DNA of 63,553 nucleotides, the filler included, from Collodictyon triciliatum (taxonomy: Eukaryota), in assembly GCA_043381765.1 (NCBI GenBank). It is 15 parts of 15 records of this genome, joined end to end, with 100 filler letters (N's around TTAATTAATTAA, not from the genome) between each part and the next. Parts side by side here need not be neighbours in the genome. Positions count along the whole stretch, not along the records: positions 12,813 to 16,955 come from JBHJMP010006458.1; 14 more parts are not named here. The stretch is one strand, 5' to 3'. Position 1 is the stretch's first letter; each line of letters begins with the position of its first letter. A program made the translations under genes and the position numbers. Of this stretch, positions 13,154-50,222 are shown one piece after another. The notes beneath the pieces were generated by a model. That model was not told the origin of the DNA, made no database searches, and worked only from the letters and a program-made list of their open reading frames with translations.

Positions 13154-16100
13154 ATGGTTGTTCATCGCTGCCGCTGTCTGAACGTCTCGATCCACGTCGG
13201 GGATGACGTGCGTCAAATGACGGGGCAGCAAGTGCTCGAGGGCTCTTCAAAGTCGTCGCTCAGCTCGTCTATATCTTCAAACATGTCTGAGTTTGTAGTC
13301 GCCGAGGATCTCAGGGCCAAAGGGATCATGAAGAATGTGGGGCGAGCAAGTTTGGGAATCGGCGGGTTCAAAAAGGTTGGTAAATACAAACTTTTAAGAA
13401 AAGCATAGAGGAAGAGCATTAATAAATATAAACGATCCCCCGCCCCTTTCCTTTTTTTTTTTTTGGGCTATTATATTATTTATGAAATTAAATAGGTGCA
13501 TAAAAATTAAAATAAGGAAAACACGACCCTATCGAAGATTACATTCTATTCGCTATGATGCATATACACTTCTAGTAATCACGTAATCCGCACACACACA
13601 CACACACACACCATTCAACAGGAATACGAGGAGCTATCGTCGGTTCATCAATTGCCAAATGGCATTAAAATATATCGCTGTGATAATTGCTTTACAAATT
13701 TTATGGCAACATCGACGTCCCTTCCTACTGATATTGTGATGATAAACGCCGATCTCATCGTAAGATTTCTAGTTATGAATCAGTGTCCGTAATGTCTTCA
13801 TATTTATATCATCATACTCGGGATTTGTATTTATGGTGTATAGATGCAAAAGCAGATCCTTTAAGACTATACTTTACAAAGATAACGCAGTATGTAATAT
13901 ATCATTTTTCTTTTCGGGGAATCTAGGTAGGAAATGAAGCACACGAGGCCAGACTAACGCATGAAAAATACTCCAAGACTTTCCGAATAATTATTGACGA
14001 TCTAGATGTCTTAATGGAAGGTACTAATTTAATAAGTACAATTTGTCTTTTTATTTCTTTTCTTTTTTGTCTTTGGTATCTAATCTCTAAAAAATTGTTT
14101 CATATTAGCGGACTCAAATTATAGGATACCTAAAGGGATCGAATCACTGGAAAAGAAACTCCAAAGCCACATTGTCGAGAATGAAGCCATGGAGAAGAGA
14201 TTTATGCAAGATAGAGTGCAGTAGGGAATTTAAAACCTGCCAGACAAATTCCATATCTCTTGACCTCGCATGATTCATATACACTGTGAACTCGACACCC
14301 TTTTCTTTTTTTTCTTGAAATATTTATGTAAATACCAAAATACCGAAAAACTTTTTAATGTATGATTATATCACAATGTTCTTTTACCCATAGGGCATAC
14401 ACTCACAACCAGCAAATCCTCTTCAAAAAGTATCAGCTCAGTACTGCGCATCAGAGACAAATGCTAGTTGAAAGAATGTCCGACAAGAACAGAAAGCAGA
14501 TATCAGTGATCGGAACTCACAAACAGACCCTAACACTTTCTCTCCTCCCGAATGAAGCCGAAACAACACCAACTGCTTCATCTGGGGCATCATCGGGAAT
14601 CGGGTTTGTTCTGCCTCTTAATTCCTTCGCATGAAGGTTTAACTTGTCAACAAATTGTAGTGTCCATTCTTGAGCGAGTTTAAATGGATGTATGCGAACT
14701 CTGAAGGGCGGAGTCTAAAGAAAATAAAATAAAATAAAATAAAATAAAATAAAATAAAATAAAATAAAATAAAATAAAATAAAATAAAATAAAATAAAAT
14801 AAAATAAAAGTAAAGAAAAGTAAATAGCGTTCAGCCATCTTATATACCCACTATCCAAAGGGGCTAAGATTTAATTGATGCGACACTGTACCGTTTCTAT
14901 GTTATCTTTTTATTTTTATTTTTAACTAAACTCAGCATCTTACATATTAGACAAATACTATCTCTTCCTCTCACGCCATCGATCGGAGCAACAAAAAAGG
15001 TTTAATTTTTTTTTTTTTGTACTCTTTTGGCTGCCTCCAATTGCACACTAACAATTAACTTACTCTCATAATTTGCCATGGTACTTTGCATACACATCGA
15101 ACAAGCAGCTTCCTGGAGAAGAAAACACACCGAAGGTAAACAAATATCGAGGTTTATAATATGACTAACTAAATTAAAATCTTTCTAGACACATTCCTTC
15201 CTTCCTTCCTTCCTTCCTTCCTTCCTTCCTTCCTTCCTTCCTTCCTTCCTTCCTTCCTTCCTTCCTTCCTTCCTTCCTTCCTTCCTTCCACCTTTTCTTT
15301 TTTTCTTCTTTTCTTCTTCTTTTTTTCTTACAATTTGTTCTTTAACGCTTGAATTATGGACTGCAGCTGAAACCAGAGGAAAAGCCTGGGAAAAAGGGGT
15401 TGACCCAACCATCGAAAACACCGAGTTCATCCAGCAAAACTTCATCTTCGACAGGAACGAAGTCAATTCGCAGACCTAGTGCTTCTGAAAAACAAGAAAC
15501 AGGAAGTGGTATATACTAAAATTCCTTAAGTTATAACACCACATATAGCTAGACTTTATATTCCCCATAACTCTTTTTCCGTACATTCTCGCCTCATATA
15601 TATTTTTGTAAAGTATAATATATCTATCGCAGGAGATTACCAATGCAAGTCCTAATCGCACTATTTTTTTTTTGTCTGCAAGCTACACACAATATGAGGG
15701 CTAATTTCAAATATCACCATATTTTTTCTCACTTATTTCTTTTCATACATCAATAGTCTTCTCTTTCGAAGAAGAGCAAATCTTGGAGGACGAGATGCGT
15801 TCAAAAGGTCAGATATCAAAGTACGAAGAACACGAATACGAAGAGGAAGAAGCCGATATCCATCCCAAAAGTACTCAGACAAGAAAAGAAGCCAAACCAA
15901 CAACAACGTCATTATCTAGCCATTATGCAAAGTCGCTTGGTTCATCAACATCGACTCCTCTCGGTACTTCCGTGCCCATCTCGATTCCACCAACGTACGT
16001 CGCCCGTACAATGCATCTTTATTTTTCTGTTCTCCTACCATACTCTCGTCACACACCCCAGATGTGACATCGCCCTACGTTACCTTGTTTTAAATCACAT

Positions 16101-16469
16101 TTGTTTCATCCTGCAATAGTGGCAAAGCGTGGGACCGTGACAGAGAGGAGGATGAGGATGAAGAGGAACAACAAGAGGGAGAGGAGGTAAACATTACCTA
16201 TACATCTATACTACAATTTTAAACAACTAAATAAAAAAATAGAAAGAAAAAAGGGAAAGAAAAAAATGAAAACAAATGTGACAGCCTCTGGCGGTATCAC
16301 AACGAAAGCTTCACACTGTTTAGTGAGATTATTTGATTGCCCTCCATCTTCCACCATCTTCCTTCCTTTTTCCTCAACATAGCGTCTGATGCCACACCAA
16401 ATCGCGGCGTCGATGTTCGAGTACTCTTCTTCGTTCGACTCGTCGAGACGAAACACGACAAACATATGA
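13154..16469 (+). CDS. PRAS40/AKT1S1 (Lobe)-like putative TORC1 regulator, 12 exons
   Basis: Approximate exons 13154-13375, 13622-13759, 13927-14020, 14109-14220, 14394-14602, 14951-14999, 15109-15135, 15368-15509, 15757-15994, 16120-16186, 16383-16469 splice in frame (11 resolved here; one boundary set may hide a further small exon). Motifs: CRCLNV, VFSFEEE, HYAKSL, TSVPISIP, PHQIAASM, RRNTT. Confidence 0.7.
15195..15289. repeat. (TTCC)n microsatellite, intronic
   Basis: Perfect tetramer run. (AAAAT)n at 14721-14809 lies in another intron of the same gene. Confidence 0.98.
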
Positions 16470-17055
16470 GGAGAACCACACCCGCCAGCCGCGAGCAAAG
16501 CGGCAGCCCGAAAGTCGGGCGAGGAGCAACCGTTGGTACTCTCCCGTCTTTTGTTGCGCAACGAAAGGCCAGGAGGCCGCTCTTTGCCAGCCTGGAACTT
16601 GCAAGTCTCGTCCTGGCGTCCTTCTTGTTGCCCTCCTTTTGCCCTCCCCCGATTCTATTCCTTCCTTCCTTCCTTCTTTCCTTCCTTCCTTTCCTTTCCC
16701 TCTTCCTTTCCTTTCCCTCTTCCTTTCCTTTCCCTCTTCGCCAACACCATTAATGAGTACGTCGTGTAGAAAGCACACATCCGACAATTTTCCTTCTCAC
16801 TTTTTGCGGACACAAACACCCCCTTCAACATCTCCTCTCGAACCTGAATCCTGTAACGAAACCCTCCAGCAACATAAAAAAAAAACAAACAAAAAAACAA
16901 GTGAATAAACGAAAAGAAAATAAAAAAAAAAAAAAATAAAGAAACAAACAAAAAANNNNNNNNNNNNNNNNNNNNNNNNNNNNNNNNNNNNNNNNNNNNT
17001 TAATTAATTAANNNNNNNNNNNNNNNNNNNNNNNNNNNNNNNNNNNNNNNNNNNN

Positions 17056-19812: not shown

Positions 19813-20937
19813 TCATTTTGCCTTTTTATCAGAGGGATTGACGGCGGATGGCCAGCCAAAAGTCCAGTTGACACTGACACGGGCAACAGGCTGTGCATCG
19901 GGAGTCTTTCGGGCTGCAGCATAGACTTCGCATTCCACAACGGCGTCTGAGATGGGCAGACGCATTTCGGGTTGTGCAGCAACATCGCGCAGGTGTTCCA
20001 TCCACTCCGGAGGGCACGATGCGACTACAACGAGAGTCCCGCGGGCCTTTTGGGTATAGTTTGCCTTGAGCGATGTGACGATGGCACGAGGGCGCAGCGC
20101 GTTTGCTACACGATTGATATCATTCAATGACTCAATCACATATATCTTGAATGAAGTAATAGAACAACAATCATCTCTCAACACCATACCATCAGTTGGG
20201 AAGAGATCCTGAACTGCTGTAAGAACAGCAAGTCCCGAACACATTTCAGCAGCGTTTGCTTGGGCAAGAGCGTGAACGGAGCTGAAAGGATTTTGCAAGG
20301 CCCAAAGCCCGCCGGGGACTTCAGCAGCTGCAAACCCAGGCTGCAGATGCCGGACCACAGAGCACACAGAACCCGAGTACGGCGCAGCAAAGTCGACGAG
20401 GCGAGAGAACAAATGTCCGCCGTCTGTGACTGGCGCAAGACTTTGCAGTGATGGGCGCAGCATCAGCCGAGTCACCTCAGGTTTTGCCCCACGCACAGAT
20501 AATTTGAGCGGTGATGATGGCAACGACAATAAGGATGACGATAGTGGAGCAGGTGACAATAAGGATGAGGATGCAGATGAAGGCGTCTGGGCGGCTGCCG
20601 ATAAGGATGCCGATGCCATCGGCGGCAGGGAGATAGATGAGGACGAAGACAGCGGAACAGAGGAGGACGAGGATGAAGATGCAGATGAAGACGTCTGGGC
20701 GGTTGCATCCAAGGCCTTGGGAAGTCCGTGGCAGGCCAACCAAAGCTCATGCAACCCGTCTGCAGAATTGAGGGCCCGCGATATCGGCGAAACCACCGGC
20801 CATACGCCCACACGGACAAGTCCGCGCATGCTCCGTGCAAGGCTCAGGGCCCGTGTCACTTGCAGTCCGATCGTGGGGCCGAGCACAACACCGCACAGCC
20901 CGAGACACACTGCAGTCACTTCCAGGGCTCCGATCAT
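19813..20937 (-). CDS. Hotdog-fold thioesterase (DUF4442/PaaI-like) with N-terminal hydrophobic segment and Ser-rich linker
   Basis: FSRLVDFAAPYSGSV...LQPGFA...NPFSSVHALAQANAAEMCSGLAVL...RAIVTSLKANYTQKARGTL resembles DUF4442-type hotdog domains. There is a probable 84-nt intron at 20189-20106. Confidence 0.8.
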   Translation of the reverse strand: MIGALEVTAVCLGLCGVVLGPTIGLQVTRALSLARSMRGLVRVGVWPVVSPISRALNSADGLHELWLACHGLPKALDATAQTSSSASSSSSSSVPLSSSSSISLPPMASASLSAAAQTPSSASSSLLSPAPLSSSLLSLPSSPLKLSVRGAKPEVTRLMLRPSLQSLAPVTDGGHLFSRLVDFAAPYSGSVCSVVRHLQPGFAAAEVPGGLWALQNPFSSVHALAQANAAEMCSGLAVLTAVQDLFPTDGMVLRDDCCSITSFKIYVIESLNDINRVANALRPRAIVTSLKANYTQKARGTLVVVASCPPEWMEHLRDVAAQPEMRLPISDAVVECEVYAAARKTPDAQPVARVSVNWTFGWPSAVNPSDKKAK

Positions 20938-21599
20938 GGCGGCTGGTCGAGATCTGGATATAAGTATGTTTTTTTGTTTTTTGTTTTTTTGCTTTGTTCT
21001 TTTTTGTTCTTTTTTGTTTTTGTTTGTTTTTTGTTTGTTTTTTGTTTGTTTTTTGTTGTTTTTTGTTGTTTTTTGTTGTTTTTTGTTGTTTTTTGTTGTT
21101 TTTTGTTTGTTTTTTGTTTGTTTTTTGTTTGTTTTTTGTTTGTTTTTTGTTTGTTTTTTGTTTGTTTTTTTGTTTTTTGTTTTTTTTTTTTTTTTTNNNN
21201 NNNNNNNNNNNNNNNNNNNNNNNNNNNNNNNNNNNNNNNNTTAATTAATTAANNNNNNNNNNNNNNNNNNNNNNNNNNNNNNNNNNNNNNNNNNNNAACA
21301 AACAAAAAACAAACAAAAAACAAACAAAAAACAAACAAAAAACAAACAAAAAACAAACAAAAAACAAACAAAAAACAAACAAAAAACAAACAAAACACAA
21401 ACAAAACACAAACAAAACACAAACAAAACACAAACAAAACACAAACAAAACACAAACAAAACACAAACAAAAAACAAAAAACAAAAAACAAAAAACAAAA
21501 AACAAAAAACAAAAACAAAAAACAAAAAACAAAAAACAAAAAACAAAAAACAAAAAAAATACAAAAACAAAAAACAAACACAAATATTCAGTCATGAAA

Positions 21600-25942: not shown

Positions 25943-27803
25943 GCTGCCCGCCTTATTACAACCTCTGCTTCCCATCTTCCTACCCCTTCGCTCAACTATC
26001 TTCACACCGGACAAGGTAATGAGAAATATGCATGCACACAACAATAATGAATATCAGAAATCGTCTGTGCTCTTTTCTCGTTCTTGAATATATCTTTCAA
26101 ATTATCCGTCATATGCATATGATACCCTACATCAGATATATCTTTGCACAATCTTGGTATTGCTTCGAATTCATTTTTTTTAAGGTGATAGCCACCTGTC
26201 TCGGTCAATATTTATGTTATTTATTTTAATTAGGGTCTATATTATCCGTGCTGCTACCTGCATGGTCCAATATTCTTGTGTCACGTACTAAGTGTTGCGT
26301 TTTGGCCAAGTCCGAAACTGTGGCAGCGAAGGCTACATTGCATACTGGAATAATGGATGCGCTCAATCGGAAGGTCAACGGTGGACCCCTCTTCTTTTAC
26401 AAGGTCAGCAATAGTCTGTTTTTCTAATGACTTTAGGATTATAACACATAAAGAAGCTTTTGGAGTAGGAATAAGCCCGGCCATGTACCTCCATATACCT
26501 CATTTATGAATCTTCTCACTGCAGTATAGTTCTAATCATAACGCGGGTGATTTGGTGATATCGTCGCGTGATGACCACGATGTCGCCTTCACAGACATCG
26601 CACCGGACGCACACTTTTGCTTGGCAGATCTGTCTGCCCTTTTTTGCCTGGGCGGGGACATTCGCATGATACCTGGTAATTCTGTCTCTTCATTGAAGCC
26701 ATCATTAAGTCTTGCTGGCAGTGGTGTCTTGGCATTTAGCTCCAAAGGCCGCATCGTCAAGATTGAGTTGAACCCAGGAGAGTCTTTCGTGGTGAACAGA
26801 AGGCAAGGCATACTCTGGAAAGATTGTCATATCTTTATCAGAATTCAAAAATATGTCATTCCTGATGACTGCTTCATTAGGTTTCTGTTGGCTTTTGATT
26901 CTAGTATCCAATTTGGAGGTGAAGATAGCGATTTAATTAGTAGGGTCAACAAGACCACTGTTGGGATAAATGTACGAAGTATTATATTTTAGAGATACTG
27001 AAACTAGAAAATTTAAACAACGATCTTCCGATCACACTCTCGTCTCATAGAACCCTTCATTTTAAATGCGAGCGAAGTGCATATTGAATGCTGTCTGAGC
27101 CGCTTGCGTTTTTTTCCACTTATGTCCTTGAATTTCTTTTACCGTAGTATCGCCCAGCCATTTTTTTTTTTGAAAAGATTATCGATGTAGGTTGTTAATA
27201 ATACCACGGAAATTGAGATAAGAAGAAACGTCAATTTTGATGGGACAAACCCAGAGTATTTTTTGCACTGTAATTCATGCATATTAAGTGGAAGGAAAAG
27301 ACGGAAATTCTATATTCTATGCTTTAGATGAAACATTCATCGCATTCTATGCGTAGAATAGCAGCAATCCGCTTTTAAAAGAACATACTCTATCTATCCA
27401 TGAATTAATTCCTGTCTTTATCTTCTATTTATTTGCATATTCTCATCACTGCTATCAGAGCCACTCTCGTGAATTTCAACGACGACCCTCAATTTCGCTC
27501 AAGTGACCTCGTGAAAGTAACATTTGTTTTCAAAATAAAAAGAGCCTATATTTCAATAAAAAAATTTTTTTTTGTTTTAATTCTGAATATGTATTGTCAT
27601 GTGTAAGTGATTCACACCTCAAATAATGAGACGAATAAATTTGTAAATATACATATATTCAAAACCTTATTATTCATGCATTTTATTCAAATACCCTCTC
27701 ATAATCACGTATACAGGTATTCGTCTCCGGTCAGTCGCCAGCGCCAGGAATTCTCTACCTCCAGAGTAATGTGGCTTCAAGAATGCAGAATCTGATAAAA
27801 TAA
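25943..27803 (+). CDS. AIM24: AIM24 (DUF124)-family protein; start not resolved
   Basis: GGPLFFYK, LAGSGVLAFSSKGRIVKIELNPGESFVVNRR|FLLAFDSSIQF and terminal PGILYLQS match AIM24 motifs. Confidence 0.75.
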
Positions 27804-47309: not shown

Positions 47310-50222
47310 ATGGACCTGGAAGAACTAGGACTGGGAAGCAATCGCACCGTCATTGTGATGCGTGTCGGAGAAAATTCAAAAGGAAAAGAATTTGTGATAC
47401 CATCAAACTGGTCATTCCAGCAACTCATCGAAGCAATATCCCACAAACTGAGCGTTACTTTACCAGTTAAATTATTTTCCCGTGATGGTTCCGAAGTTAG
47501 AGATATAGACTTAATCCAAGATAATGACACTCTATATGTTGGAGCCAAAGAAGTGAAGAGAAATTCTATCATGTTAGGACATGCAAAAGGTGACAATAAT
47601 ACTATTTAATTTTAATTTTTTTTCTAGCACTATCAATATCAGAGCAGATGGCTTCTTTATACTTAATTATTACTTGTAAAGCTTGTTCAAATTTCTTTAA
47701 CACCTCATCAACTTTTTTTTTGAAAAAACATTTTCTGAAGGGTTCACTGTGTCCTCAGTTGGCTCACCTCATGTACATAAACATAATGGAGGCACAAAAG
47801 AAGGAGCAGATAATGAAGTACCAACAGATGAAATCAGCAAATCGTTTGTGGAAAACGAATCGTTAAATGTGAATGGCCCTATAAATGGAGTAGCTCAAGC
47901 AGTAGGAAATAAAATGGAGTCTGCAAATCCTGATTGTAGTAAAGAAATAGATGGAGTACATCCCAGCATTAATACTAGCAACAGTTTGAATATCGGGGAT
48001 AGAATTGGGAACTATATACTAGGAAGATTTCTTGGGCGAGGTGGGTTTGGAGAAGTTAGACTCGCAACTCATTTCATTAGCCATGAGGAATATGCTCTCA
48101 AATTTATTCGTAAACAAGGAATCAAAGATTTTCAAAACGCTGAACGCATGTCCGCAGAAATCATGGCCCTTACAGTTTTGAGACATCCCAACCTTCTTCA
48201 CATGTTTGAGGTCATCGATACACAAAATGCTGCTTGTTATGTCATGGAATATCTACCTGGGGGCGATCTCCTGCATTATATTCTAGAACACGGTGAGCTC
48301 AAGGAGTTTGATGCGTACCGATTCTTCCAACAGTTATATTCCGGAGTTGAATACTGCCACAGCCAAAACATTATCCACAGAGATTTGAAACTAGAAAACT
48401 TGCTGCTCACTCGGGACCAAAAGACTTTGAAGATAGCTGACTTTGGGCTGTGCGGGGTGATCGTGCCTGATGTCACTGACCAGCACGGAGGAACTCGGTC
48501 CTATGCAGCACCAGAGTTATTTCGTGGGAAAACAGCCATCTCGCCCGCGCTTGACATCTGGTCTATGGGGGTCATTTTGTATGCAATGGTATTTGGTCGC
48601 TTGCCGTTCAATGTAGTCGATGCTTCAGGGGCAAAAATAGTCTCTGTGGAGAATATACAGAACGGTCGGTACTCTTTCCCGCCAGGAAAGGTATCAAGTC
48701 CTTGCCAAGACTTCATTTCAAGGATGTTGACAGTTTCGATAAAAAAGCGGGCATCCTTAGTAGATTTGTATTGCCACCCTTGGACAAATATTATGCGCCG
48801 AAAGAATACGTGGATGAATACAGAATCTGGTCGAAATGATATGGACCCAGATTCAGTCCTTCTAGACGACCTCGATGACTTGTTTGTCAAAAAGTCGGAT
48901 TCGCATACAAGTCTATCCAATGACCTTACATCTCCAGGAAACGTTAAATCTGTAAAGACAATCCAATCATTCAACCAATCATATGGTCATGATATATTTA
49001 CATCATGGTCCCCAAAAGTGACAAACCCAACAGGGAATGGGTCCTTCGTATCCCCACCACAGACTCCAAATACTTGGGATGATGAAGTCCCAATTTTTAG
49101 TCAGAAACTCACACCCGTTATCACAAAGCACGAAGCAAAGCAACTACCAAATATTCCTGGCCCAATACCAAAGAAAGTAACAGGAAAACCGGGAGCACAA
49201 GCTCAACTCACATCTCATTTACTTAATATGCAGACTTATGACCATGGAAATCAACCAGGGACACCGACATATAACTCTTCCAATCATAGAAGAAAAAGTG
49301 GTATAGATTTTCACTTGGATTCAAAAAGAAAAAAAAGGAAAAAAAGGAAAAAAAGGAAAAAAGAAAAAAAGGAAAAAAGAAAAAAAGGAAAAAAGAAAAA
49401 GAAAAAGAAAAAGAAAAAGAAAAAGAAAAAGAAAAAGAAAAAGAAAAAGAAAAAGAAAAAATGAAAGAGAATCCCCTTCCTATGATGTAGATTTTCTTTT
49501 CAATTTTGTGAGTCTTTCTTCCTTTTAACATCAAAACGAACGGGGTCAATTATAATCATTATCATTTTATTGTCCTACATGTACCAACCATTTATCTCTG
49601 GTTGATTTATAAGACATCCACCCACCCACATCCCACTTAAATGGCGCATATACACGCAGGAGACTACAATGTCGTATCGACAACCATCGAGCCCTTGGGT
49701 GATTTCAAAGCGAAAGAGCGAGGCCTTCAAACAAAGCCTCGCCCTAAGCTGGGAATCGACACAACCGGACAATACGAGGCTGCTGCAGAATCCCAAGCGC
49801 ATCTCAGCGGGCCGAAAGGATTGACAGGCGCGAAGCAGACACCCAAACGGCCCGGAGCCAAAGAGCCTTTCGCGCTGACGCAGCACTTCCCTGGGCTCAG
49901 TGGGCAAGCGAACCCAGGGCAAAGCCTTGCAGCGCGACGAGCAAAATCAGCTTCTCATGCCTACATTCAAAGCCCCAAGGAGGAGCGAGCGCAGCAGAGT
50001 TTGGAAAGTAGCGTCGAGGCTGCGGCTGTGAGCGGGCGAGGTTCATCGCCAAACGCAGTGCCAAATACTCCGACTTCGGCGAATGCAGGCCGAGTCTCGG
50101 ACTCTGGGCGGTACAAACACCTGACCGAGTTCAGGTCTGGATTTAAGAGCTACAACCAAGCGTATCGCAGAATGGCACAGAGTACACACTCGGGCGCTGT
50201 GTCAGGCAGCAATGGCTCGTGA
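47310..50222 (+). CDS. AMPK/MARK-related Ser/Thr kinase with N-terminal DCX/KHA-like domain (exons 47310-47589, 47741-49300, 49660-50222)
   Basis: GRGGFGEV, YALK, HRDLKLEN, DFG, YAAPE, DIWSMGVILY. Two phase-1 GT-AG introns join three ORF-track ORFs in frame. Exon 1 ends ...KLFSRDGSEVRDIDLIQDNDTLYV (DCX/KHA pattern). Confidence 0.9.

What the first reader, a model, noticed from the sequence alone, without database searches (positions are those of the whole stretch)
13154..16469. Hidden PRAS40-like gene with the full ordered set of TORC1-binding motifs in a probable protist
Seen: short exons splice in frame into one protein that the ORF track misses. In order it contains VFSFEEE (15757), HYAKSL...TSVPISIPPTGKAW (15921-16135), an acidic spacer, PHQIAASMF and terminal RRNTTNI-stop. 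Established: human PRAS40 has, in the same order, the TOS motif FVMDE (binds Raptor), QYAKS183LPVSVPVW (strand binding mLST8), RIAAS221M (helix binding the TOR FRB domain) and RLNT246 (Akt site). PRAS40 is mostly studied as an animal protein. Inference: a deep-branching PRAS40 orthologue, implying this TORC1 brake is older and more widespread than usually described. The terminal site lacks the -5/-3 Arg spacing of a perfect Akt motif and looks more like PKA (RRxT), suggesting different upstream wiring.
Basis: partly seen in the sequence, partly recalled or inferred. Interest (0 to 1): 0.82.

Follow-up and report, generated by a model that had tools for sequence, protein, structure and literature searches.

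The report
PRAS40-like TORC1 regulator gene in a protist
A small spliced gene in a free-living freshwater protist encodes a disordered protein that carries, in the same order as human PRAS40, the short motifs by which PRAS40 docks on the growth-control kinase complex TORC1, which suggests that this brake on TORC1 may be older than animals.

Summary
The motif-bearing exons are real. Four GT..AG exons on the + strand (15367-15508, 15757-15994, 16120-16186, 16383-16469) read open and end in TGA. A cDNA contig supports the last junction (16186|16383). Codon statistics favour the claimed frame in three of the four exons.

YAKSL, IAASM and SVP.S.P each occur once in the 127,102-residue six-frame translation, all inside this gene, so chance is a very poor explanation.

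The organism is not an animal. The neighbouring kinase is 62-63% identical to two Diphylleia rotans proteins and 44% or less to all others.

No sequence or profile search supports homology. Pfam on 7 exon pieces, PDB phmmer, phmmer over 1.84 billion proteins, a word-index search and a metagenome scan all found nothing. The spliced protein could not be submitted.

The extension back to 13154 is doubtful. The upstream exons have their own stop at 14632-14634, and a cDNA contig reads straight through the only in-frame donor.

Verdict: a PRAS40-like TORC1-docking protein outside animals, with family membership unproven and the 5' end unresolved.

The parts
15367..15508 (+). Predicted coding exon e6 (LKPEEKPGKKG...SIRRPSASEKQETGS). 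It starts in phase 0 and leaves 1 nt. It holds no ATG, so an upstream coding exon is needed.
   Evidence: Acceptor ctgcag|, donor G|gtatat. The codon score is 11.0 in the claimed frame against -10.7 and -13.9 in the others. GC is 0.46 against 0.28-0.33 in most flanking introns. No RNA support.
15757..15994 (+). Exon e7. It carries the TOS-like FSFEE (15759-15773) with acidic flanks, HYAKSL (15921-15938) and SVPISIPP (15969-15992).
   Evidence: Sequence. Acceptor caatag|, donor AC|gtacgt. The codon score is 13.9 in the claimed frame against -4.1 and -5.9. YAKSL and SVP.S.P are each unique in the six-frame translation. A 172-nt DNA contig of metagenome run X1 covers 15799-15970 with 1 difference.
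16120..16186 (+). Exon e8. It completes the Thr codon, then reads GKAW and an acidic spacer (DRDREEDEDEEEQQEGEE).
   Evidence: Acceptor caatag|, donor GAG|gtaaac. The codon score is 8.2 against -8.8 and -8.7. Its last 15 nt are joined to e9 in the cDNA contig of run X6.
16187..16382 (+). Intron (GT..AG) removed in cDNA.
   Evidence: The X6 contig lies on 16381-16650. Its loose 5' letters end in CAAGAGGGAGAGG, which is unique in the window at 16172.
16383..16469 (+). Last coding exon e9: RLMPHQIAASMFEYSSSFDSSRRNTTNI plus TGA. IAASM is at 16401-16415 and RRNTT at 16446-16460.
   Evidence: Sequence. The cDNA contig of X6 covers it. IAASM is unique in the six-frame translation. The codon score is ambiguous here (1.4 against 7.5 in another frame).
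16470..16650 (+). 3' untranslated region, at least to 16650.
   Evidence: The X6 cDNA contig is colinear from 16381 to 16650.
15078..15135 (+). Candidate first coding exon. The ATG sits in the context gccATGg. The donor GAAG|gtaaac leaves 1 nt and joins in frame directly to e7 (149-aa model). The alternative ATG|gtactt joins to e6 (178-aa model).
   Evidence: Open in-frame paths were computed. An X2 contig covers 14951-15156 unspliced. The codon score is uninformative. Unproven.
13154..14634 (+). Upstream five-exon reading frame: 13154-13375, 13622-13759, 13927-14020, 14109-14220, 14394-14634. It gives 268 aa and ends in its own TGA. It is either a separate orphan gene (favoured) or the N-terminal part of a 437-aa fusion through the donor at 14608.
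   Evidence: Open path. Intron 14221-14393 is removed in the X2 cDNA contig, which then runs colinear to 14618. The claimed frames have the best codon scores. No family or relative was found.

Best explanation
Window 15367-16469 (+) holds the 3' four exons of a small spliced gene of a diphylleid-like (CRuMs) protist. They encode a Ser/Thr- and acid-rich protein that is probably disordered and that works like PRAS40, as a multi-site docking ligand, substrate and competitive inhibitor of TORC1.

Inferred mechanism:
- FSFEE with its acidic flank occupies the TOS groove of Raptor.
- About 58 residues on, the KSL/SVPISIPP stretch adds a strand to LST8.
- After an acidic linker, the IAASMF segment lies on the FRB surface next to the TOR active site.
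- The Ser of KSL and the Ser of AASM, each followed by a hydrophobic residue, would be TOR phosphorylation sites.
- RRNTT, three residues from the C-terminus, would be phosphorylated by a basophilic (PKA/AGC-type) kinase and release the protein, possibly through 14-3-3 binding to a C-terminal phospho-motif.

Shown here: the exons, one junction, the motif order and spacing, and the non-animal host. Inferred: every binding and phosphorylation step, and descent from the same ancestor as animal PRAS40. The start codon is unresolved.
For: 1. The exon chain is open with canonical splice sites. The e8|e9 junction is seen in cDNA. The claimed frame has the best codon score in 3 of 4 exons, and exon GC is 0.44-0.55 against 0.30-0.43 in its three introns.

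2. Motifs occur in PRAS40 order. FSFEE fits the TOS pattern F/acidic/hydrophobic/acidic/hydrophobic and its PRAS40 variant FVMDE. The same review notes that acidic flanks are favoured. KSL matches 3 of 4 letters of the 'KSLP region'. IAASM and YAKSL equal the human strings quoted in the finding, which also agree with my recall. R.NT[ST] near the C-terminus parallels RLNTS of the human C-terminus printed.

3. Rarity in the window's 127,102 six-frame residues:
- YAKSL 1 time (expected 0.14).
- IAASM 1 time (expected 0.023).
- SVP.S.P 1 time (per-site probability 5e-7).
- R.NT[ST] 2 times, one of them here.
- All PRAS-type hits lie within 15924-16460 on one strand.

4. Spacing resembles human numbering (positions; human residue numbers are partly recalled; Thr246 and length 256 are):
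- TOS-F to KS-Ser: 58 residues (human 54).
- Ser to Ser: 52 (human 38).
- Ser to Thr: 15 (human 25).
- Thr to the end: 3 (human 10).

5. Composition is that of a disordered linker protein: S+T 27%, D+E 19%, hydrophobic 16%.

6. The three-site binding mode of PRAS40 (Raptor TOS pocket, mLST8 strand, FRB helix 212-232) is documented.
Against: 1. No search recognised the protein:
- Pfam gave 0 families for 7 of 7 pieces of the four exons at E<=10.
- PDB phmmer gave 0 chains for e7 and for e9 at E<=10, although PRAS40 peptides are in PDB entries such as 5WBU.
- phmmer of e7 against 1.84 billion representatives gave 0 at E<=0.001.
- The word-index search had 76 candidates and none at E<=0.01.
- The Atlas gave no usable hit.
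- The metagenome scan gave 596 pattern matches and none confirmed.

2. The helical hydrophobic moment around IAASM is not among the top windows of the chain. After IAASM the sequence (FEYSSSF) has little in common with the human helix.

3. Motif differences: KSLG instead of KSLP, and a 10-residue insert before the SVP strand. There is no Arg at -5 of the terminal Thr, so it is not an Akt consensus.

4. There are no proline-rich stretches (P 7%), unlike the N-terminus of human PRAS40.

5. The junctions e6|e7 and e7|e8 and the start codon have no RNA support.

6. The human YAKSL and IAASM contexts could not be verified from any tool output. Text searches found no paper printing them.
Confidence: 0.55

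Rival explanations
1. It is an orphan disordered protein with no TORC1 role. The resemblance to PRAS40 is a set of short strings in a low-complexity, fast-evolving protein and carries no function.
For: All sequence, profile and feature searches were blank. The region after IAASM is not clearly amphipathic. The TOS-type pattern is common: 45 hits in the window's six frames. The upstream gene in the same locus is also an orphan.
Against: Two exact 5-mers (window expectations 0.14 and 0.023) and a 7-residue pattern are each unique in the window. They fall in the right order, in one gene, near the C-terminus, with a basophilic Thr site behind them and a TOS-type motif about 58 residues before. My rough joint expectation from the per-site probabilities is below 1e-8 per window.
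Confidence: 0.27
2. It is a functional analogue, not a homologue. On this reading a lineage-specific TORC1 ligand evolved PRAS40-like docking motifs independently, because the Raptor, LST8 and FRB surfaces are the same in all eukaryotes.
For: Short linear motifs arise easily in disordered proteins (general knowledge). There is no detectable similarity outside the motifs. PRAS40 was reported as animal-specific in a phylogenetic profiling study.
Against: Five-letter identities at two separate sites, the same order of four to five elements and similar spacing are more than convergence on loose consensus motifs usually gives.
Confidence: 0.13
3. One 437-aa protein runs from the ATG at 13154, with the Cys-containing, coiled-coil-like upstream part fused to the PRAS40-like tail by splicing 14607|15367.
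For: The path is open and in frame. The tail exon e6 has no ATG of its own and needs a phase-0 upstream donor, and 14607|GT is one. The region 14635-15077 scores like an intron (about -110 in all frames, GC 0.28).
Against: The X2 cDNA contig has intron 14221-14393 removed yet continues colinear from 14394 to 14618, across the proposed donor. A second X2 contig lies unspliced on 14951-15156, inside the proposed intron. The upstream frame has its own stop at 14632-14634. The donor GTTCTG is weak. Other in-frame starts exist (ATG 15078).
Confidence: 0.3

Closest known systems
PRAS40 / AKT1S1 (human; Pfam PF15798) and its fly counterpart Lobe
   Same: A disordered protein whose C-terminal half carries the same elements in the same order:
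- a TOS-type motif (FVMDE in human, FSFEE here);
- a K-S-L site followed by a Val/Ile-Pro-rich strand;
- an acidic linker;
- an AAS-M site in a putative helix;
- a basophilic Thr site close to the C-terminus.

The spacings are of the same order.
   Different: - No detectable profile or pairwise similarity on single exons.
- KSLG instead of KSLP, and a 10-residue insert before the strand.
- The helix region diverges after five residues.
- The terminal site is RRxT, 3 residues from the end, rather than RxRxxT, 10 from the end.
- No proline-rich N-terminus.
- The host is a diphylleid-like protist, while PRAS40 is described as animal-specific.
TOS-motif substrates of TORC1 (4E-BP1, S6K1)
   Same: They dock on Raptor by a five-residue TOS motif with acidic neighbours and make a second contact with the FRB domain.
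   Different: Those proteins lack the LST8-binding strand and the KSL/AASM pair. The protein here shows no kinase domain in Pfam, and I saw no eIF4E-binding motif in its sequence.
DEPTOR, the other endogenous TORC1 inhibitor of animals
   Same: A negative regulator that binds TOR directly.
   Different: DEPTOR is a folded DEP/PDZ protein that binds the FAT domain. No such domains were found here.

Membership tests
PRAS40 / AKT1S1 (Pfam PF15798 PRAS) | Significant match to the family profile or to a known member | tested here: not met
   0 of 7 translated pieces of exons e6-e9 matched any Pfam family at E<=10. 0 PDB chains matched e7 or e9 at E<=10. 0 hits came from 1.84 billion representatives. 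Caveat: only single exons could be submitted. The spliced protein, which carries all motifs together, was never scored, and HMMER filters drop most weak matches.
PRAS40 / AKT1S1 (Pfam PF15798 PRAS) | TOS-type Raptor-binding motif (F-x-hydrophobic-acidic-x; FVMDE in human) with acidic flanks | tested here: met
   FSFEE at 15759-15773 is followed by EQILEDE. The pattern alone is common (45 hits in six frames).
PRAS40 / AKT1S1 (Pfam PF15798 PRAS) | KSLP region with the TORC1-site Ser, followed by the strand that binds mLST8 | tested here: inconclusive
   HYAKSLG at 15921-15941 has K-S-L but Gly for Pro. SVPISIPP follows after 10 residues. The KSLP region is named and the strand. The exact human letters around it are recalled or quoted by the finding, not taken from a tool.
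PRAS40 / AKT1S1 (Pfam PF15798 PRAS) | Amphipathic helix (human 212-232) that binds the FRB domain and holds the second TORC1-site Ser | tested here: inconclusive
   IAASM at 16401-16415 is unique in the window. The helical hydrophobic moment there is not among the top windows, and the following residues differ. The helix is described.
PRAS40 / AKT1S1 (Pfam PF15798 PRAS) | Akt consensus site (RxRxxT) near the C-terminus that recruits 14-3-3 | tested here: not met
   The human C-terminus DLPRPRLNTSDFQKLKRKY has Arg at -5 and -3. Here SSRRNTTNI-stop has Arg at -3 and -2 of the first Thr (or -4 and -3 of the second) and none at -5. It is basophilic, but not an Akt consensus.
PRAS40 / AKT1S1 (Pfam PF15798 PRAS) | Proline-enriched N-terminal stretches | tested here: not met
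   Pro is 7% of the e6-e9 chain and there are no Pro runs. The human feature is described. The true N-terminus here is unresolved.
PRAS40 / AKT1S1 (Pfam PF15798 PRAS) | Physical binding to Raptor and TOR/LST8, and inhibition of TORC1 | not testable with these tools
PRAS40 / AKT1S1 (Pfam PF15798 PRAS) | Taxonomic range: animals | tested here: not met
   The neighbouring kinase (47701-49464) has its two best relatives in Diphylleia rotans (62-63% identity). All other listed hits are at 44% or less, in oomycetes, Andalucia, an aphelid, plants and a few animals. PRAS40 is called animal-specific.

The most novel reading that the evidence does not exclude
PRAS40 is not an animal invention. A three-site TORC1 brake (Raptor-TOS, LST8 strand, FRB helix, with both TOR-site serines) already existed in the common ancestor of CRuMs and Amorphea. 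It has gone unnoticed elsewhere because only its docking motifs are conserved. In this lineage it is released by a PKA/AGC-type kinase acting on a C-terminal RRNTT-NI-COOH motif, possibly a C-terminal 14-3-3 site, and not by Akt. On this reading the Akt input would be the animal novelty and the brake itself would be ancient.
Probability: 0.4. Interest if true: 0.78.

Novelty: new variant of a known kind. Interest (0 to 1): 0.6.

Why it matters
[quoted passage not shown] 2011, passage read). My three literature searches for a non-animal PRAS40 turned up none.

A PRAS40-type protein in a diphylleid-like protist would have three consequences:
- It would move the origin of this TORC1 inhibitor back by more than a billion years, to before the split of CRuMs and Amorphea.
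- It would imply repeated loss, or undetected divergence, in fungi and other lineages.
- It would separate the ancient docking logic (TOS, LST8 strand, FRB helix) from the later Akt input.

It also gives a compact natural test of which residues of the three docking elements are indispensable, because only those residues are shared. The claim is directly testable with recombinant protein and with human or yeast TORC1.

Tried and rejected
- Pfam on single exons. One search failed on my wrong coordinates and was corrected. One search had one piece too short and was re-sent. No family was found for the PRAS-like exons. Two of the five upstream exons gave only sub-threshold matches (DUF6393 at E 0.17, Lip_C at E 0.15).
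- Word-index protein search with e7 among longer proteins: 76 candidates, none at E<=0.01.
- The same search with upstream exon 2: 1 candidate, none at E<=10.
- phmmer of e7 against 1.84 billion representatives: 0.
- PDB phmmer of e7 and e9: 0.
- ESM Atlas with e7, named clusters only: no usable hit.
- Metagenome scan with e7: 596 pattern matches, none confirmed.
- No whole genome is held, so Raptor, LST8, TOR, Akt and 14-3-3 of this organism could not be looked for, and complex prediction was not used.
- Earlier findings of this scan: nothing.
- Sequencing runs: no listed holder is on record as RNA. All 7 holders have small shares (0.05-0.11).
- In the lay, parts without cover (e6, most of e7, and the whole tail in X2) are not used as evidence. 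The X3 read on 13620-13744 with 26 unplaced leading letters might be a spliced e1|e2 read, but its loose end was not listed.
- Papers PMC5750076 and PMC3199301 are not held. Text searches for the human peptide strings around Ser183 and Ser221 found nothing relevant.
- ORFs on the minus strand and in other frames over 13217-16905 gave only sub-threshold Pfam noise, so an overlapping gene was rejected.
- The hydrophobic-moment scan did not single out the IAASM segment.
- Supplementary tables of van Dam et al. 2011, which hold per-species presence and absence, could not be seen.
Full report
WHAT IS THERE

The window is eukaryotic nuclear DNA: about 35% GC, many microsatellites, N gaps and short GT..AG introns. 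In 15367-16469 on the + strand, four exons join in frame into 177 codons plus TGA:
- e6, 15367-15508
- e7, 15757-15994
- e8, 16120-16186
- e9, 16383-16469

Their acceptors are tgcag|, caatag|, caatag| and acatag|. Their donors are |gtatat, |gtacgt and |gtaaac.

- (V)FSFEEE is at the start of e7. The Val codon is split over e6|e7.
- HYAKSL is at 15921.
- SVPISIPP is at 15969.
- A Thr codon is split over e7|e8 and is followed by GKAW.
- The acidic run fills e8.
- PHQIAASMF and RRNTTNI-stop are in e9.

IS THE GENE REAL?

A codon-usage score was trained on 1,101 codons of three long ORFs of the window. The results:
- The claimed frame scores best in e6 (11.0 against -10.7 and -13.9), in e7 (13.9 against -4.1 and -5.9) and in e8 (8.2 against -8.8 and -8.7).
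- The score is ambiguous for the 29-codon e9.
- Two of the gene's three introns score -22 to -56 in all frames; the 125-nt e7|e8 intron scores only -6 to -9.
- Exon GC is 0.44-0.55. Intron GC is 0.30, 0.43 and 0.33.

Public runs hold only small shares of the region, but laying four of them gave positive evidence.

Run X6 has a 344-nt contig on 16381-16650. Its unplaced 5' letters are an adaptor-like string (...ACGCAGAGTACATGGGG) followed by CAAGAGGGAGAGG. That 13-mer occurs once in the window, at 16172-16184, the end of e8. The molecule therefore joins 16186 to 16383, and it runs on into a 3' UTR to at least 16650.

Run X2 has a contig with the same kind of adaptor. It skips 14221-14393 (GT..AG), so these two runs contain spliced RNA of this organism.

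The junctions e6|e7 and e7|e8 remain predictions.

WHERE DOES THE GENE START?

e6 has no ATG, and its frame opens only at 15346. Three in-frame solutions exist:
(B) ATG 15078 (context gccATGg) with donor GAAG|gtaaac, spliced directly to e7, giving 149 aa.
(C) ATG|gtactt at 15078-15080, spliced to e6, giving 178 aa.

Evidence against A:
- The spliced X2 contig continues colinear with the genome from 14394 to 14618, across the donor.
- A second X2 contig lies unspliced on 14951-15156.
- The upstream frame ends in its own TGA at 14632-14634, giving 268 aa.

I favour two genes, at about 70%, but the 5' end is open. All three models keep every motif.

IS THE MOTIF SET MORE THAN CHANCE?

| Pattern | Times seen in 127,102 six-frame residues | Expected from composition |
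|---|---|---|
| YAKSL | 1 | 0.14 |
| IAASM | 1 | 0.023 |
| SVP.S.P | 1 | per-site probability 5e-7 |
| R.NT[ST] | 2 | per-site probability 2.2e-5 |
| loose TOS pattern | 45 | per-site probability 5.6e-4 |

The PRAS-type hits all lie between 15924 and 16460, on one strand and in PRAS40 order. Multiplying the per-site probabilities over generous distance windows gives a joint expectation far below 1e-8 per window. That figure is my arithmetic, not a tool output. Chance is not a reasonable explanation.

The spacing also resembles human PRAS40:

| Interval | Here | Human |
|---|---|---|
| TOS-Phe to KS-Ser | 58 | 54 |
| Ser to Ser | 52 | 38 |
| Ser to Thr | 15 | 25 |
| Thr to C-terminus | 3 | 10 |

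The other human numbers are recalled.

WHAT THE LITERATURE SUPPORTS

I read passages, not whole papers.
- The TOS pattern, its PRAS40 variant FVMDE, the preference for acidic flanks, the FRB-binding helix 212-232 and the mLST8-binding strand (PMC6325617; PMC7464330).
- A 'KSLP region' that binds mTOR-Raptor (PMC5053690).
- The human C-terminus 238-256, DLPRPRLNTSDFQKLKRKY, with Thr246 (PMC2708931).
- Proline-enriched N-terminal stretches and 14-3-3 binding (PMC5620322).

No tool output confirmed the exact human letters around Ser183 and Ser221. Searches were blank, and the structure paper is not held. For these letters I rely on the finding's quotation, which agrees with my recall.

WHOSE GENOME IS IT?

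No genome is held. The long kinase ORF at 47701-49464 finds two proteins at 62-63% identity. Every other listed hit, among 120 shown of 2,119, is at 44% or less, and these come from oomycetes, Andalucia, an aphelid, plants, algae and a few animals. The two best are EukProt entries of Diphylleia rotans.

The alignment is colinear over the kinase domain. A short C-terminal motif is shared with the next ORF (49641-50219), while the disordered parts do not align.

Pieces of the locus at about 99% identity occur in freshwater metagenome runs.

The host is therefore a non-animal, diphylleid-like (CRuMs) freshwater protist, diverged enough from D. rotans that disordered proteins are no longer alignable. 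This rests on one gene.

DO SEARCHES SUPPORT HOMOLOGY?

They do not:
- Pfam: 0 of 7 pieces of e6-e9 matched at E<=10.
- PDB phmmer: 0 for e7 and 0 for e9.
- phmmer over 1.84 billion representatives: 0.
- Word-index search: 0 of 76 candidates.
- Atlas: no usable hit.
- Metagenome scan: 0 confirmed of 596 pattern matches.

The weight of this is limited. Each exon carries only one or two motifs, and a five-residue identity cannot reach significance on its own. The spliced protein could not be handed to any search tool. I therefore do not file the protein as a member of PF15798.

HOW IT MOST LIKELY WORKS

All of this is inferred. The protein would be a disordered, Ser/Thr- and acid-rich chain (S+T 27%, D+E 19%, hydrophobic 16%) that binds TORC1 at three sites, as PRAS40 does:
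- FSFEE binds the Raptor TOS groove.
- KSL plus SVPISIPP binds LST8.
- IAASMF binds the FRB.

This would block substrate access, and the protein would itself be phosphorylated on the two Ser residues that are followed by Leu and Met.

The terminal RRNTT is a basophilic site of RRxT type, not an Akt RxRxxT site. Phosphorylation of the second Thr would leave two residues before the carboxyl end. From general knowledge, that fits C-terminal (mode III) 14-3-3 motifs. This last point is speculation.

Weak points of this reading:
- The IAASM segment is not notably amphipathic.
- KSLG replaces KSLP.
- There is no proline-rich region.

NOVELTY

The phylogenetic profiling paper calls PRAS40 animal-specific. 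My searches for non-animal PRAS40 found none. The passages read mention PRAS40 only as a mammalian component or in reference lists. Supplementary presence/absence tables could not be opened.

A PRAS40-like protein in CRuMs is therefore a new variant of a known kind. I give 0.55 to a PRAS40-type TORC1 ligand (most likely homologous), 0.13 to convergence and 0.27 to a non-functional resemblance.

OTHER STRANDS AND FRAMES

ORFs on the minus strand and in other frames across the locus give only sub-threshold Pfam noise. The repeats (AAATA)n at 14717-14814 and (TTCC)n at 15194-15289 lie between the upstream frame and e6.

Noticed in passing
window 13154-14634 (+): A five-exon reading frame of 268 aa has an N-terminal C-x-C, a later C-x-x-C (IYRCDNCF) and a coiled-coil-like C-terminal half. 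Intron 14221-14393 is removed in cDNA (run X2). No Pfam family passed threshold and no relative was found, so it looks like an orphan gene just upstream of the PRAS40-like exons.
   Followed up: partly
window 47701-49464 and 49641-50219 (+): A CAMKL/AMPK-related protein kinase (Pfam Pkinase, E 1e-63) is 63% identical over the kinase domain to Diphylleia rotans EukProt proteins. A conserved C-terminal motif lies in the next ORF, so the two ORFs are probably one gene interrupted by an intron or a low-complexity Lys run.
   Followed up: partly
window 19816-20940 (-): A long ORF has a DUF4442 (thioesterase-like) match at E 5e-17 and long Ser-rich tracts.
   Followed up: no
window 26510-26989 (+): An ORF gives a weak AIM24 (mitochondrial biogenesis) match, E 2e-4, below the curated cut-off.
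   Followed up: no
window 14120 and 16172 (+): Adaptor-tagged 5' ends of cDNA contigs fall inside coding exons. This suggests truncated RNA molecules or internal starts in the single-cell-type libraries X2 and X6. Both runs are from one study and are labelled as two different organisms, yet they match this locus at 99% or more.
   Followed up: no
window 12606-12927, 14717-14814, 15194-15289, 16658-16739: Dense microsatellites, (ACAT)n, A-rich runs, (AAATA)n and (TTCC)n, flank and separate the genes. Short N gaps at 12715-12810 and 16955-17050 show that the scaffold is pieced together.
   Followed up: no
window 13620-13744 (+): A 151-nt record of 'freshwater metagenome' run X3 aligns only from 13620, two bases before exon 2, with 26 leading letters unplaced. 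It could be a spliced exon1|exon2 transcript read in a run labelled DNA. The loose letters were not listed.
   Followed up: no
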